Position numbers and translations under genes: made by a program. The notes beneath the pieces are model-generated. The model saw only the letters and a list, made by a program, of their open reading frames with translations, was not told the DNA's origin and did not search any database. A stretch of DNA of 64,000 nt. Source: Felis catus. Its lineage: Eukaryota. Every line of letters starts with the position of its first letter. Positions within the stretch are counted from its first letter, which is position 1. Location of the stretch: positions 35,278,001 through 35,342,000 of the forward strand of contig NC_058375.1 in NCBI RefSeq assembly GCF_018350175.1, given 5' to 3'. This document shows positions 110 through 63,894 of this stretch, in pieces.

Positions 110-769
110 TCACTCGTAGTAGAGCCCATGGACCACGGCCACGGCGAAGAGCGAGGCGTTGGTGAAGGCGGCGGAGGCCAGACCATCGCATTCGGTGTCC
201 CAGAGTGCGCGGCTGACCACGTGCACGCCCTGGCCGGCGCGCGGCCCCAGCACCACGCTGCACACTAGCTTGTAGCGCGGGGGACTGATCTCACGCAGGC
301 GCACGCGTACCAACTCGCACAGCTCCTGAGCCAGAGGCCCGGCCTCTGCACCCGAGTAGCACGCATTGTGCAGCCTCGCCGCCAGCGCTGCCTCCAGGGC
401 GCACTGTAAGCGCGAGGCTTCCCAGCGCTCCCCTGGCGCTGGCTCTGTGCGGTAGGAGGGTGCCACCTGACGCACGGGCGCTAGGGGCAACCCAGAGAAG
501 CTAACCCTGGAGCCCAAAAGAGGAACTGGGCCCAGAGATGGTCGCCGACCCCCAGGACCCACGCCTGGTCCGGCCAGCGAGTTGCGGCGTGAGAAGGACG
601 AGGCTGGGCCCAGCACAGAGCCGCGGCGGGAGGCCGGGCCCAGACTTGCTAGTCGGGCCTCTTCAATACTGGGCAGGTGGCCTGGAGGCCTCACCGGTGA
701 TAGTTTCAGCCCGGGGTCTTTGGTAGTATCCTCCTCCTGGCGTCCTGGGGGCACAGACCTGCCAGCCAT
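110..769 (-). CDS. DYNLT4: Dynein light chain Tctex-type 4 (TCTEX1D4), single coding exon, 219 aa
   Basis: ORF 110..793 with the true ATG at 769 (MAGRSVPPGRQEE...), preceded by an acceptor (tcttctag) at about 781. C-terminal Tctex-1 domain (PPRYKLVCSVVLG...SRALWD...DGLAS...NASLFAVAVVHGLYYE), RVSF PP1-docking motif, RRxS sites. CpG-rich. Confidence 0.95.
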   Translation of the reverse strand: MAGRSVPPGRQEEDTTKDPGLKLSPVRPPGHLPSIEEARLASLGPASRRGSVLGPASSFSRRNSLAGPGVGPGGRRPSLGPVPLLGSRVSFSGLPLAPVRQVAPSYRTEPAPGERWEASRLQCALEAALAARLHNACYSGAEAGPLAQELCELVRVRLREISPPRYKLVCSVVLGPRAGQGVHVVSRALWDTECDGLASAAFTNASLFAVAVVHGLYYE

Positions 770-1533
770 GGACCTGCCGGCTAGAAGACCCACACATAGA
801 CGGGATGGCCTAAACTGGCCGTCTGTACCACATCCAGTCTTTCACTCCGTGATAAGGGTTTTTACCCCCTAACCCCTTCTTACCTGTGTTTTTGGGACAG
901 GTGAATCAAATTGTCCCCAGCTGCGTGGATTCCTAGGTGCTTAGAGGATTAAGGGCTGTTAGGGACATAAGCGATGCTGCTCAGACTATCATCTTGGGGT
1001 TGCCCCTGTCCCCTTGAGCTCCACTTTCCCCTGGGCACTATGGAGGTTTGCTAAGTGAGCTCTAAATAAATACACCTCCTTTTCTCTCTTCCACCTGACT
1101 TCTCCAGCAGAAGGGAGATGAACCTCCCCTTTGTTTTCCTCAGCCTAGATAGTGGTGCCTCAAACCCCTAACCAGAGGGAGACACAGACCAACTCCTTCA
1201 ACCCCACAGATCCTTTTAGCCCTGTGTCTAGAATCCAGACACCTTCGACCCCTACCTGCTTCTAGCGTGGCTGGCACAAAGATCTCTCCTACAATTGGTT
1301 CAGGCTGGATGGAGGCAGGTGACTCAGGAAGCTCCTTCCACCCTCTCCAGTTGGCCTCTGGCCCTACCTCCAGAATTAGTTCTGGGATGAATGCCCTCTT
1401 CTCCCGAAACTCCCACAGGAAACTGAGTCACCTGCAGCCTTTGGCCTCCAAACTCTCTCCTAGCTCCACAGCCCTTCCTCACCCAGCTGGCCTGACTGGC
1501 AGACGGGAAGGTAATGGCCCCTTGTGTTGTGGA

Positions 1534-2958: not shown

Positions 2959-5900
2959 ATGGAGACCCCAGGACTGGTTGTGCACGGGGAGGCTGCACCC
3001 TTTTCCACAGCACTCCGAAGCCTTCTCAACAATCCCCAATACAGGTGAGGGGGTGGGCCCTGTCTGTGGGATTTCCTTAGCTGGCTCTGCTGGGTCCCAT
3101 GACTCTGAGGAAGCCTTGGGTACAGAAGAGGTGGAGATGACCCTCCTCCCTGGTGAACTCAGTCTGGGGAAGTCAAGTGTGGAGAATGGCTACAGGTTAC
3201 AACACTCAGTGTCCATGATGTCTTGAGAGCCAGAAGTGGGGGCGGGGGGAGAAGAGGGGGAGGCAGTGGGGGCTGGAGCCCGGAGCAACTGGTATGACTT
3301 TGGGCAAAGGCCTTCTCTTGTGGATTTGGGTTCCTGGCAGAGAGGAGCCCTTTGCCCCCTGGATCTTGAGAGATGGGATGTGACTTGAGTCCCTCCCTGG
3401 GAGGCAGAGGAGCAGATGACCCTGTTCTGGGAACTGGGGATTCACAAGAGGAACAAAACTCAAGGGATTGAGCCAGAGTTTCCGGCAGGAAGCAGTTCAA
3501 GGGTGCTGCCTAGGGCTCACTGCACAGGATGCTAGTGGTGTCTGAAACCAGGGATAGAATATGGGGGCAGGGCTGGTCAGGAGAACTAGAATGTAGCTTT
3601 CTGTCCCCACTGCCTCCCTAAGGGTTGAGGACTCCCATGACCCTACTGCTTTGGGGATTACAGTCTGGTCTGAGTAGTGGGAACCCCTGGCCTTGGACCT
3701 GGGACTAGGAGGCTCCAGAAGCCCAAGCTTCATTTCCTGCCTCCTACCCTCTATGCTGTTGGGAGGCCCAGAGGCTGGGGCCGGAAGTGGTTGTGAAGAT
3801 GGAAAATGTGGTCTGGTCTCATGATGGTGCGTTGCTGCCATGTCTATCTGCAGCCAGTGCACTCTGCACCCCCGCTCCCCCACCCCCTCCTGCCTGGAGG
3901 AGGCTGAAAAAGGCTGAGTTTGCAGTCTATGGAGGAGGAGCCAAGAAGAGCTTCCCTTACCTCAAGAGTCAGGCTGGGGAGAAGAGGGGTATGTAAGATC
4001 AATCTTGCATCAGCCTTGGTGTCCCCTCAGTGATCAAGTATAGCCACCTCCTCTAAGACCTGAGGGTTTGGGATTACTATCCCATTTCATGGATGAGAAA
4101 CCTGAAATTCAAAGGTATAAGTCACTTGCCTGAGGCACTATGGGATGAAGCTAGGACTAGAATCCAGGCCTGTGTGTATACTCCAGACCATTGGCTGGAA
4201 GGACTAAGCCCTGTCCCTTATATGACAGATAAGGAAATGAAAGCTCAGAGTAGGCAAAGGCAAAGCCTAGAGTTATATCCAAGACTCTGGCCTCTTCTTC
4301 CCTGGCTCTCTCCTTCCCTTCCCACAGTGATGTTTGCTTTGTGGTCGGTCAAGAACGGCAGGAGGTGTTTGCCCACCGGTGCTTGTTGGCCTGTAGATGC
4401 AACTTCTTCCAACGACTTCTGGGTCCAAAGCTGGGCTCTGGCATGCCTAGCCCCGTGGTGCTAAGCACTGTGCCAGCTGAGGCCTTCCTGGCAGTGCTGG
4501 AGTTCCTGTACACCAACAGCGTCAGGCTGCACCGCCACTCTGTGAGCCTGTTGGGCAAGGGTGTGGATGAGAGAGGGAGGGGGAGGGGCAGGAGACACTC
4601 CCTTCCACATCCCTTCTACTTTGCAGGTGCTGGAGGTGCTGACCGCGGCTATAGAATATGGGCTGGAGGAACTGCGAGAGGTAGGTTTATATGGCAGACC
4701 CTTGTCTCATTTCTCTTGCTTCTTATGGGCTCAGATCACACCCTGCCTCACACACACTCTGGCCTGGAGAGGAACGTGTTCCAACACAGAAGTATGGATA
4801 TCTCTCTGTGTAAATAGGCATTATGTGTGCCTATGTGCAATGGATATGTACATGCCCTGTGTGTGCTGTGGGGGCATATGGCGGGGGTTATGGCTGGTGC
4901 CATAGATGCCAGGATAAATCAGCCTTGATCCTTGTTCTTCAAAGAGAGATAGACACATGAAAACTCTTAACCCAGGGGCATAAGAAGTGTGATAAATGAG
5001 GGTATATGGTGCTGAGACTCTACAGAGGGTCTCTCTAGTCTTGCCATAGGGGAGAAAGGAAGGGAAGACTTCTTGGAAGGGGAAACATTTGTGTTAGATC
5101 AAGTAGAATAGGTAGAGGTTTGCTCAGAGGGGGAGTGGAAAAGGTGGCATTCTAGTCACAGAGGCACAAAAGGAGCTAGTGAGCCATTTAGTGTGGCTGG
5201 ACTAAGTGTGAGAGGAGAGAGACAGATGAGATGAGATTGGAGACAGTGCCGGGGGCTAAATCATACTGGACCTTAAAAAATTTGGACTTTTTTTTTACTC
5301 AGAGGGCATGGAAATTCATTGGAAGTTTCAGGTAAGGGAGTGAGGATTTGGAGCTAAGAGGATAAGTGATTGGGAGAGATGGGAAGGGCTCCACAGTCCA
5401 ATGGGGATGAGAGGCAGTGGCAGCCCATGACTTTAAGAGAAGTGGAACTGGCATGACCCAGTGCTTTTCTGGATGTGAAAGTGAGAAGGAGAGGTCATGG
5501 GTGAAATTCAAGTTTCTGGTTAAAACAAAAAGGTCTTTGAGTCAGGAGTGACACAAGATAAGTGTCCTCAGAGAAGGAGAGTGGATTTTCACGTGGCTTT
5601 CATCTAGTTTCATTTGTGGGGAATGTGCTAGAAGGTAGACTGCTGGACCCAAAGTAGGCTGCTAGTGTCCAGTCCCTTCAGGCTTGCCAAATCTCAGACC
5701 CTGGTGATTTCTTGCCTCTCTTGGTCTGGGAGGTCACCTTGGGCATGTGGCTGCTTAGGAGCCCGGGTGGCTCACTGCTTCTGAGGATGGGGTCTTGGAG
5801 GGGGAGACACCTTGGCACAACCTGCTTTCATTTCTGTTCCCAGCTGTGCCTGGAGTTTGTGGTGAAGGTGCTGGATGTGGAACTGGTTTGTGAGGCCTTG

Positions 5901-6806
5901 CAGGTGGGTGTTCTAGACAGGCTTGCAGTTAGTCCTCGGTGTGGAGGACTGGACTACAATGGTCTCTCCAGCCTCCAACCTGATGGCCTTCATCCTGTTC
6001 CTAGGTTGCTGTAACCTTTGGCCTGGGACCGCTGCAGGAGCGTTGCATAGCCTTCATAGAGGCCCACAGCCAGGTATCGCTCCCCATCTTCATAGTCTCA
6101 ATCCCTCAGACCTCATTCTGCTCCTCCCTGACCCATTCGTGGACCCACAGGAGGCGCTCCGGACCCGCGGGTTCCTGGAGCTGTCGGCGCCAGCGTTGCT
6201 GTCCCTGTTGCGCAGCGACAAGCTCCGCGTGGACGAGGCTGAGCTCGTTCTGGCGGCCAGGAGCTGGGCACGCGTGGGTGCGGTGAGCGGGGGTACTAAA
6301 GGGACCCTGGGTTGGCGTGCGGAAGGAGGCTTGGGGCGCAGGAACACGGCAAGCCGGAGGCGGGGCAGGTGCTCCTGCCTGTCCAGGCTTAGGGCTGGCG
6401 TTCGCAGGCTGTGCTGGAGCGGCCGGTGGCGGAGGTGGCGGCCCCGGTGGTGCGGGAGCTGAGACTGGCTTTGCTGGCCCCGGCGGAGCTGAGTGCCCTG
6501 GAAGAGCAGAACCAGCGGGAGCCGCTCATCCCGGTGCGGACGCGGGGAACCAAGCTCAGATCCGCTCAGCAGCGTGGGGGAAAAGCGCGAGGGTGGGGGT
6601 GGGGGGCTCGGCCCAGGGTCTGCCGGGTGAGGGGGTATTGCAGGACTGCCGTGACCGGCCTTCCCCTGCAGGTGGAGCAGATCGTAGAGGCGTGGAAATG
6701 CCACGCTCTGCGAAGAGGGGATGCGGCCCGGGGCGCCCCGTGCCGCCGCCGGAGGGGAACCCTGCCCCGGGAGCATCACTGCTTTCTGGACCTGCCCTTT
6801 AAGTGA
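2959..6806 (+). CDS. BTBD19: BTB/POZ domain-containing protein 19, 8 coding exons, 291 aa
   Basis: Exons with GT-AG boundaries: 2959-3044, 4328-4541, 4627-4680, 5844-5903, 6005-6073, 6151-6282, 6408-6533, 6672-6806. Sum is 876 nt, in frame. METPGLVVHGEAAPFSTALRSLLNNPQYSDVCFVVGQERQEVFAHRCLLACRC (BTB), BACK-like region, ends LPREHHCFLDLPFK*. Confidence 0.95.
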
Positions 6807-8840: not shown

Positions 8841-9456
8841 CATCACTACCTTTTTCATTCATTACACCCTTTGTCTTCCTGAGGATCTGAATCTCCCTAG
8901 ACAAAGATCCCTGGGATTGGAGTGGTGCCTTATTCATTTCTTGTTTCTCCAGTCTCAGTCACATAATCAGTGCTCTGCAAATGTTCAGTGATTACGTTAT
9001 TTCCTTATTTAAATGCTATTTTATTCCATAAAGAGTTTAAAAGAGCTATAAAACAAGATACTATCAATCTAAAATGAGGGACAGTTGATTAGTAGAAAAT
9101 AAGGTTACACTTCTGTCTCAGGGATTTTATACAAAAATATGTTGCATATGAATTAAAGAAAGTTATTTGGCATTACTTCTCAAGACCGAAAATGTGGTTA
9201 CTCATAGTACCACTTCATAACAGCATTGTTTGGATAATGAAAATTGAAAACAAGCTAGATGTCCTGGTTTAATCTAGAAGACTGGCTAAACTATGGTATA
9301 TTACAGTGATATAGAAAGGTATCTGTGACTTTGGAAAAAGCTCAGTGCAGATCAAGTAGAGCACAATTCCTTTTGCTAAAAGAAAAGGTAGTGTAAGGGA
9401 GGAAAAAGTTCTCCTTGCCCCTCTTAGGGTCCCTGGTTGGGTTTGAAAATTAAACT

Positions 9457-10065
9457 TGGGAATGCAAGCTGGTGCAGCCACTCTGGAAAAGAGTATGGAG
9501 TTTCCTCAAAAAACTAAAAATAGAACTGCCCTAGGACCCAGCAATTGTACTACCAGGCATTTATCCACGGGATACGGGTGTGCTGTTTCGAAGGGACACA
9601 GGCACCCCCATGTTTATAGCAGCACTATCAACAATAAAGTATGGAAAGAGCCCANNNNNNNNNNNNNNNNNNNNNNNNNNNNNNNNNNNNNNNNNNNNNN
9701 NNNNNNNNNNNNNNNNNNNNNNNNNNNNNNNNNNNNNNNNNNNNNNNNNNNNNNNNNNNNNNNNNNNNNNNNNNNNNNNNNNNNNNNNNNNNNNNNAGAA
9801 AGATGAAAATCTTATGACTTCACTCATGAGGACTTTAAGAGACAAAACAGACGAACATAAGGGAAGGGAAATGAAAATAATATAAAAACAGGGAGGGGGA
9901 CAAAACATAAGAGACTCTTAAATATGGAGAACAAACAGAGGGTTACTGGAGGGGTTGTGGGAGAGGGGGATGGGCTAAATGGATAAGGGGCACTAAGGAA
10001 TCTACTCCTGAAATCAGTGTTGCACTATATGCTAATTTGGATATAAATTTTTAAAAAATTAAAAA
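9457..10065 (+). mobile_element. L1-derived 3' element (ORF2 end + 3' UTR), copy 1
   Basis: Starts TGGGAATGCAAGCTGGTGCAGCCACTCTGGAAAA (L1 ORF2 C-terminal region), ends in an A-rich tail. TSD GAAAATTAAACT at 9445-9456 and 10066-10077. N gap at 9655-9796. Confidence 0.9.
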
Positions 10066-10119
10066 GAAAATTAAACTGACATAGATTAACAGGACAAAAG
10101 CATACAAATTTATTTAATA

Positions 10120-35884: not shown

Positions 35885-63894
<28,010 letters not shown>

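What the first reader, a model, noticed from the sequence alone, without database searches (positions are those of the whole stretch)
9445..10077. Two independent L1-derived insertions share an identical 5' end: candidate short non-autonomous retroelement family (copy 1)
Seen: 9457-10065 and 62231-62860 both begin at exactly TGGGAATGCAAGCTGGTGCAGCC immediately after their own, unrelated TSDs (GAAAATTAAACT vs AGAGRTCCTAAAA). They are about 610-630 bp, highly similar, and share a compact 3' UTR (...GGGGCA(C/A)TAAGGAATCTACTCCTGAAATC...), which appears shorter than the carnivore L1 3' UTR I recall. Established: L1 5' truncation points are largely random, so two base-identical breakpoints in 64 kb are unlikely. 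Different TSDs, tails and flanks exclude segmental duplication. Inference: a source locus transcribes only this 0.6 kb unit, which behaves as a SINE-like element made purely of L1 sequence and would be labelled simply as truncated L1.
Basis: partly seen in the sequence, partly recalled or inferred. Interest (0 to 1): 0.8.

Follow-up and report, generated by a model that had tools for sequence, protein, structure and literature searches.

The report
Fixed-start short copies of cat L1
In cat-family DNA, many copies of one jumping-gene lineage begin at exactly the same letter instead of at random points, which points to a defined short RNA and offers a way to test why such elements are usually cut short.

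Summary
Confirmed: two independent L1 insertions (9457-10065, 62231-62860; about 92% identical, own target-site duplications) start at the same base, ORF2 codon ~1145.

The shared start is not chance. Among database proteins translated from other copies of this subfamily, non-L1 sequence joins at this codon in 17 of 40 script-called junctions (24 by eye); by eye, other codons have one or two. The junction resolves to the same T. A sister subfamily shows 0-1 of 69 against 8 of 61.

Most copies run on upstream into L1 with the same 3' end. Short copies have no fixed private change over 66 codons, carry several haplotypes, start with U and show no cap-type extra G.

Best reading (0.42): full-length RNA of one L1 sub-lineage is cut, or its decay halts, at this base, and the poly(A) 3' piece is copied in cis. 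A non-autonomous source or internal start site stays close behind (0.36).

Ten literature searches found no description. Dfam/Repbase and whole felid genomes could not be checked.

The parts
9445..9456 (+). Left target-site duplication of copy 1 (12 bp), preceded by TT
   Evidence: exact repeat at 10066-10077
9457..10065 (+). Copy 1 of the fixed-start 0.6-kb L1 3' unit; first base is the hotspot base
9457..9838 (+). Broken remnant of the last ~130 codons of L1 ORF2 in copy 1 (partly unreadable); starts inside the C-terminal Cys/His motif
   Evidence: motif name recalled
9839..10052 (+). 3' UTR of copy 1, ending in the unit's only run of four or more T
10053..10065 (+). A-rich tail of copy 1
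10066..10077 (+). Right target-site duplication of copy 1
62214..62230 (+). Left target-site duplication of copy 2 (13-bp core 62218-62230, up to 17 bp), at a TT/AAAA site
62231..62860 (+). Copy 2 of the fixed-start unit; same first base as copy 1
62231..62621 (+). Broken ORF2 C-terminal remnant of copy 2; 62273-62416 matches human ORF2p residues 1159-1206 (E 3.7e-11), so the first codon is about residue 1145
62622..62835 (+). 3' UTR of copy 2, with ATTAAA near its end and no T4 run
62836..62860 (+). (AAAAC)n tail of copy 2
62861..62873 (+). Right target-site duplication core of copy 2

Best explanation
The two insertions belong to a recurrent class of L1 retrocopies, from one felid-type subfamily, whose 5' end is fixed at one base about 600 nt from the tail (shown). 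Most likely mechanism (inferred): the full-length RNA of a sub-lineage of this L1 is translated and bound in cis by ORF2p at its poly(A) tail. A fraction of these RNAs is then cut at this G|U step, or 5'-to-3' decay halts there. ORF2p copies the remaining uncapped 0.6-kb piece to its end by target-primed reverse transcription and joins it to the target without microhomology. The copies look like a SINE family but are by-products of the autonomous element and need no promoter of their own. The cutting agent (host endonuclease, small-RNA-guided slicer, exonuclease block or self-cleaving fold) is not identified.
For: Spike: 17 of 40 script-called junctions fall in the pre-named codon (P about 4e-16). 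By eye it is 13 of 119 in the search whose ranking was blind to the junction. Single-base precision: in 11 of 11 proteins read in the shifted frame the residue before the first L1 codon is M, L or V, as an xTG codon requires (6 M, 3 L, 2 V); none was seen by eye in the next 13 codons. Only 2 of 11, and 0 of 2 window copies, have G before the T, so no cap-type G and no microhomology excess. Same parent: 78 of 119 copies continue into L1 upstream; the short consensus equals the younger-type long consensus at 66 of 66 codons; divergence is the same (0.096 vs 0.096). More than one source: short copies carry both states of a site that also splits long copies (8 T, 2 K, 1 M), and P0197 has older-type states. 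On a tree they need 12 changes against 12.3 for shuffles. Subfamily-specific: 8 of 61 against 0-1 of 69 (p 0.002-0.013; strict count 6 of 61, p 0.009-0.05). Precedent: ORF2p is processive and host cleavage is argued to be the likelier cause of truncation (PMC10830420, passage); cleaved 5'-OH L1 RNA is proposed as an in-cis template (PMC6789731, passages). U is an atypical start base for Pol II or Pol III (own knowledge).
Against: No cutting agent found: no ribozyme family in Rfam at E up to 10; the published LINE-1 ribozyme sits in the 5' UTR and cuts C|A. All 11 readable short copies share one haplotype next to the junction (Ala at shifted-frame position 4: 11 of 11, against 45 of 78 long copies, p 0.006), which a founder source explains just as well. 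One variant is enriched in short copies (4 of 11 vs 2 of 78, raw p 0.002, post hoc over 66 columns), but the second sample does not clearly repeat it (2 of 11 vs 4 of 43). The two window copies share three states absent or rare in the database copies (0 of 11 short and 2 of 78 long; 0 of 25; 0 of 7). Haplotype mixing in short unnamed contigs could be assembly chimerism. The tree has only 64 columns, 1 starred branch, and does not rule out one origin. In human cells U6/L1 junctions showed no preferred L1 site.
Confidence: 0.42

Rival explanations
1. Non-autonomous, SINE- or TINE-like family: one or a few source loci, either a 0.6-kb insert under an outside promoter or longer L1 copies with an internal start site, transcribe RNA from this base, and L1 proteins copy it in trans.
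For: Single-base spike confined to one subfamily. One fixed haplotype beside the junction in 11 of 11; 0 of 23 with the older state when the 12 ambiguous proteins are added, against 23 of 78 (p 0.001). Hints of sub-lineages among short copies and three states shared by the window pair. Tarsier TINEs show that about 29,000 copies can arise from partial transcripts of a silent element (PMC5059674, passages).
Against: No fixed private change in 66 codons; no clustering on the tree. No shared leader: every upstream flank differs, so a start site would have to fall exactly on this U. No excess of an added G. Promoter boxes are weak: best A-box 7 of 9 without the final GG, best B-box 5 of 7.
Confidence: 0.36
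2. Reverse-transcription arrest: the RNA is full-length, but ORF2p stops at the 3' foot of a stem-loop just upstream of this base that is stronger in this subfamily.
For: Upstream sequence inferred from three overlapping protein frames folds more stably in this subfamily than in the sister: 45 nt, -13.3 vs -6.9 kcal/mol, z -1.8 vs +1.3; 66 nt, -17.7 vs -12.1, z -2.2 vs +0.4. The stem ends within two bases of the junction.
Against: The sequence is inferred from few proteins in some frames (1-8), not observed, and the z-scores are modest. Bases at the junction are also paired in the sister fold. The hairpin type occurs in long copies of both near-junction haplotypes (34 and 16), yet short copies come from only one. 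ORF2p is highly processive. A stall would be expected to scatter over several bases.
Confidence: 0.13
3. Splicing by-product: the T is position +2 of a GT donor-like site in the parent L1, and a branched or debranched splicing intermediate that still holds the poly(A) end is copied up to the branch.
For: Inferred upstream bases give a donor-like G|GTGGG context. A variant that changes donor position +5 occurs in 11 of 78 long copies and 0 of 11 short ones.
Against: The sister subfamily has the same context and no spike. The end is one base short of the donor G. The 0 of 11 is not significant (p 0.06). No spliced partner product could be looked for.
Confidence: 0.04
4. Chance, duplication or artefact: ordinary random truncations, a segmental duplication, or a bias of gene calling or assembly in the protein database.
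For: The outside evidence is indirect: predicted proteins on short unnamed contigs, species not determined, target-site duplications not checkable. Many ORFs start inside the region and are uninformative (66 of 90, 34 of 119).
Against: Different flanks, tails and duplications in the window. The spike appears in two reading frames and three searches, each protein with its own flank. It is absent from a sister subfamily processed the same way.
Confidence: 0.03

Closest known systems
Ordinary 5'-truncated mammalian L1 copies
   Same: ORF2 C-terminal remnant, 3' UTR, A-rich tail, target-site duplication, endonuclease site.
   Different: Truncation is described as at various positions (PMC3747384, passage). 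Here at least 13 of 119 copies that reach this position start at one base.
Tarsier TINEs (PMC5059674, passages)
   Same: SINE-like, L1-mobilised short retrosequences made only of part of another element.
   Different: TINEs derive from silent LTRs with a Pol II promoter. This unit is the 3' end of an L1 whose long copies are of similar divergence, and no promoter or cap sign was found.
HAL1 (half-L1; PMC5753468 and PMC13756887, passages)
   Same: Non-autonomous derivative made of L1 sequence.
   Different: HAL1 encodes ORF1p; this unit has no ORF1 and consists of the ORF2 tail and 3' UTR.
U6/L1 chimeras (PMC6789731, passages)
   Same: Model in which L1 RNA is cut after RNP formation and the 3' piece is inserted in cis.
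   Different: No U6 or other shared head here, and those junctions show no preferred L1 site.
SVA truncation hotspots (PMC10681720, PMC12593883) and tailless retropseudogenes (PMC5322556), passages
   Same: Recurrent end points in L1-mobilised RNAs.
   Different: The SVA clusters with a stated cause are 3' ends at cryptic poly(A) signals and the others are only 'potential' hotspots; tailless ends are 3' ends attributed to internal priming. None is a single-base 5' end within L1 itself.
LINE-1 twister-sister-like ribozyme (PMC11620745, abstract, passages, section 19)
   Same: A self-cleaving motif reported inside L1 sequence.
   Different: Placed in the 5' UTR of primate L1PA7/8, cuts C|A, mostly inactive homologues; this site is G|U in the ORF2 tail.

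Membership tests
L1 retrocopy (TPRT) | Target-site duplication and endonuclease site | tested here: met
L1 retrocopy (TPRT) | L1 sequence running to an A-rich tail | tested here: met
Randomly 5'-truncated L1 | 5' ends spread smoothly | tested here: not met
   17 of 40 junctions in one codon
SINE (Pol III) | Head derived from tRNA, 7SL or 5S RNA | tested here: not met
   Unit is L1 from its first base; no such Rfam match
SINE (Pol III) | Internal A and B boxes | tested here: not met
   Best A 7 of 9 without GG, best B 5 of 7; consensus patterns recalled
SINE (Pol III) | No T4 terminator inside the unit | tested here: met
   None in copy 2; one at the very end of the readable part of copy 1. Weak: L1 sense strands are T-poor
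Non-autonomous family from source loci (SINE/TINE-like) | Discrete 5' end across independent insertions | tested here: met
Non-autonomous family from source loci (SINE/TINE-like) | Own lineage with diagnostic changes | tested here: inconclusive
   No fixed change in 66 codons; unresolved tree; fixed near-junction haplotype
Non-autonomous family from source loci (SINE/TINE-like) | Primary transcript starting at this base | not testable with these tools
   Needs RNA data; no excess G at the junction
HAL1 | Encodes ORF1p | tested here: not met
   Only ORF2 tail and 3' UTR
U6/L1 chimera or spliced L1 with a 5' exon | Shared sequence upstream of the L1 part | tested here: not met
   All upstream flanks differ
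LINE-1 TS-like ribozyme product | 5' UTR location and C|A cut site | tested here: not met
Segmental duplication | Shared flanks | tested here: not met
Catalogued feline L1 subfamily (Dfam/Repbase) | Match to a library consensus with this 5' end | not testable with these tools
   No repeat library available

The most novel reading that the evidence does not exclude
A mammalian L1 sub-lineage carried a site-specific RNA cut in its ORF2 tail (a new self-cleaving fold, or one dominant germline slicing or decay-stop site) that released a stable 0.6-kb poly(A) RNA and seeded a SINE-like population made purely of L1. This would be a fossil record of a defined molecular cause of L1 5' truncation, possibly with some short copies going on to replicate as their own family.
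Probability: 0.3. Interest if true: 0.87.

Novelty: new variant of a known kind. Interest (0 to 1): 0.68.

Why it matters
Why most L1 insertions are 5'-truncated is described as not well understood (PMC10830420, passage). A single-base end point that is common in one subfamily and absent from its sister gives a matched pair of natural sequences to test cleavage, decay arrest and polymerase arrest in a standard retrotransposition assay. If the rival holds, it is an overlooked non-autonomous family that repeat annotation would hide under 'truncated L1'. Either way the copies are usable markers in felid genomes, and annotation that assumes random truncation misses them.

Tried and rejected
GTDB genome scan with a 20-base pattern: 0 matches. 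Plasmid megablast: no match. Cluster-member look-up could not be made, so variation inside clusters stayed unseen. Metagenome and viral contig collections and whole felid genomes were not searched, so target-site duplications and DNA-level 5' ends of outside copies stayed unchecked.

Antisense reading frames as a start-codon-free probe: all three are closed by stops 17-25 codons from the junction, so not used. LINE-1 ribozyme (a recalled lead): rejected on location and cut site. Rfam at E up to 10 on both copies: only weak miRNA, snoRNA, CRISPR-repeat and IRES hits far below gathering scores.

Pairing of the unit's first 30 nt with the segment before the tail looked striking in the fold, but 80 of 500 shuffles did as well and the whole unit has z -0.2: rejected. 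Linkage of the upstream hairpin to the near-junction haplotype: not significant (p 0.23). A first subfamily comparison (p 0.15 and 0.054) used a loose pattern that over-counted long copies (79); one search replaced it with an offset rule (61 and 69 informative).

The junction-calling script is noisy: it extended several by-eye junctions upstream (P0031, P0062, P0142, P0181, P0197, P0212, P0217, P0276) and called P0237, which I had left ambiguous; both counts are given. The tree is uninformative either way.

Full report
Observation. Copy 1 spans 9457-10065 between exact 12-bp repeats; copy 2 spans 62231-62860 between repeats of 13 to 17 bp at a TT/AAAA site. They are about 92% identical where readable (187 of 203 and 229 of 250 columns). 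About 140 bases of copy 1 are N. Flanks and tails differ, and the window holds no other copy. Both begin at the same T ('base 0' below). Translation matches human ORF2p 1159-1206 from codon 15 on (29 of 48 identical), so the unit is the last ~130 codons of ORF2, a 3' UTR of about 210-240 nt and a tail. The window carries young tRNA-derived SINEs of the felid type (type name recalled). Two copies sharing an end have a chance of about 0.00025-0.001 under exponential truncation, too weak for a genome scan on its own.

Outside test. No eukaryotic genome collection was open and the GTDB scan gave 0 matches. I therefore used predicted proteins translated from other copies, mostly unnamed ENA contigs of 0.5-2 kb. 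An ORF that runs from flank into L1, or from upstream L1 into the unit, shows where L1 begins. Three searches sampled this subfamily. (ORF2 frame): best 120 of 4620, one dropped, 90 of this subfamily, 61 reaching upstream of base 0; 8 by eye and 6 by script have unrelated sequence directly before the first codon; in two of the 8 that sequence is another part of L1. (shifted frame, query starting 44 nt inside, so ranking is blind to the junction): best 120 of 285, one dropped. Of 119, 13 join at base 0, 78 continue into L1, 12 start one codon before the first L1 codon, 11 start just inside, 3 are ambiguous and 2 are other. (50% representatives): 47 of 147 new proteins kept by signature, 25 of this subfamily, 3 by eye and 2 by script at base 0. 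The script junctions in all, 17 in this codon; for a codon named in advance among about 34, P is about 4e-16. By eye the total is 24, each with its own flank (SINE tails, MIR-like sequence, old or antisense L1, unique DNA).

Resolution and specificity. In the shifted frame the residue before the first L1 codon is M, L or V in 11 of 11 (6, 3, 2). That fixes the junction at the T: one base further in would give this with chance 5e-7, one base further out would give V throughout. The sister subfamily, searched on purpose (best 120 of 3767, one dropped), has 0 or 1 junction at base 0 among 69 informative proteins, against 8 of 61 (p 0.002-0.013; strict count p 0.009-0.05). Its few other junctions are scattered. 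The 12 ambiguous proteins lack the older near-junction state (0 of 12, against 23 of 78 long copies), so many are probably short copies too. The share is therefore at least 11% and perhaps about a quarter of copies reaching this length. This is a biased sample, not a genome count.

Family or by-product. Long copies carry the same C-terminus and 3' UTR, so the 3' end is not a mark of the short unit. Over 66 codons the short consensus equals that of younger-type long copies, and divergence is alike (0.096, 0.096 and 0.083). Short copies hold more than one haplotype and do not cluster on a weak tree (12 changes against 12.3 shuffled). No leader is shared, the first base is U, and G precedes it in only 2 of 11 database and 0 of 2 window copies. 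These points fit an uncapped processing product better than a primary transcript (purine starts and cap-derived G are own knowledge). Against this, all 11 short copies share the state at base +11. One variant is enriched in them (4 of 11 vs 2 of 78; not clearly repeated, 2 of 11 vs 4 of 43). The window pair shares three states rare or absent in the database copies, which is unexplained: it may be a sub-lineage or a species difference. Chimeric assembly could also blur haplotypes away from the junction.

Mechanism. Shown: TPRT hallmarks, a single-base 5' end, subfamily bias, long relatives. Inferred: a discrete 0.6-kb poly(A) RNA was the template. I put its origin at a site-specific cut or decay stop in the parent RNA with cis copying (0.42), source loci or an internal start site (0.36), polymerase arrest (0.13), a splicing intermediate (0.04), artefact (0.03). 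Upstream sequence inferred from overlapping frames folds more stably here than in the sister subfamily, with a stem ending at the junction (z about -2 against +0.4 to +1.3). That suits arrest or structure-guided cutting but rests on inferred bases. Promoter boxes are poor, Rfam shows no ribozyme, and head-to-tail pairing is not above shuffles.

Comparison with print. Ten searches of the open-licence library found no description of a fixed-start feline L1 class. Subscription papers, Dfam and Repbase were not covered, and no supplements were read; repeat tables in supplements could hold such an entry. Seen as passages only: PMC5059674, PMC13756887, PMC12593883, PMC10681720, PMC5322556, PMC5753468, PMC10830420, PMC2666801, PMC5203782, PMC11014359, PMC3747384, PMC6789731. 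PMC11620745: abstract, passages and section 19. All others were seen as search listings only. It works like a TINE-type short retrosequence in outcome, or like the cleaved-RNA step of the U6/L1 model in mechanism. It fails membership of Pol III SINEs, HAL1, U6/L1 chimeras and the published LINE-1 ribozyme.

Verdict. Real and more than chance; a new variant of a known kind; interest 0.68.

Noticed in passing
window 12454-12567 (-): Full-length U5 snRNA match (104 bits) with an octamer about 215 bases upstream, a PSE-like stretch and a 3'-box-like stretch (motif names recalled): looks like a working gene rather than a retrocopy.
   Followed up: partly
window 44434-44497 (+): A pure run of 39-40 A between two 12-bp direct repeats: looks like a poly(A)-only L1-type insertion.
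   Followed up: no
window 110-841 (-), 4254-6462 (+), 19231-20981 (-): Tctex-1, BTB/BACK and Patched/sterol-sensing domains. The order recalls DYNLT4-BTBD19-PTCH2 in other mammals (recalled, not tested).
   Followed up: partly
window 45846-46071, 49573-49838, 55298-55566: Three young felid-type CanSINE copies, 87-90% identical to each other, among about 25 older CanSINE pieces.
   Followed up: partly
window 11810-12092 (+): CanSINE with an internal partial duplication, a long pure A tail and a ~10-bp flanking repeat.
   Followed up: no
window 9797-9817 and 62577-62598; database proteins: Both copies, and most database copies that could be scored (27 against 10 among long ones), have a 4-base-shorter form near the ORF2 end that shifts and shortens its last residues.
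   Followed up: partly
window copies 1 and 2: The pair shares three states that are rare or absent in database copies (0 of 11 short and 2 of 78 long; 0 of 25; 0 of 7): a sub-lineage or a species difference.
   Followed up: partly
protein P0080 (named UniRef record, Ursus maritimus): A bear gene model also joins unrelated residues to L1 at this codon; a single case that may be a predicted splice junction.
   Followed up: no
proteins P0146, P0151, P0062, P0174: L1 3' parts or antisense 3' UTR joined ahead of this region: nested insertions, rearrangements or assembly chimeras.
   Followed up: no
window 62140-62152 and 62560-62572: An exact 13-base repeat between the upstream flank and the inside of copy 2; probably chance or an old L1 remnant.
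   Followed up: no
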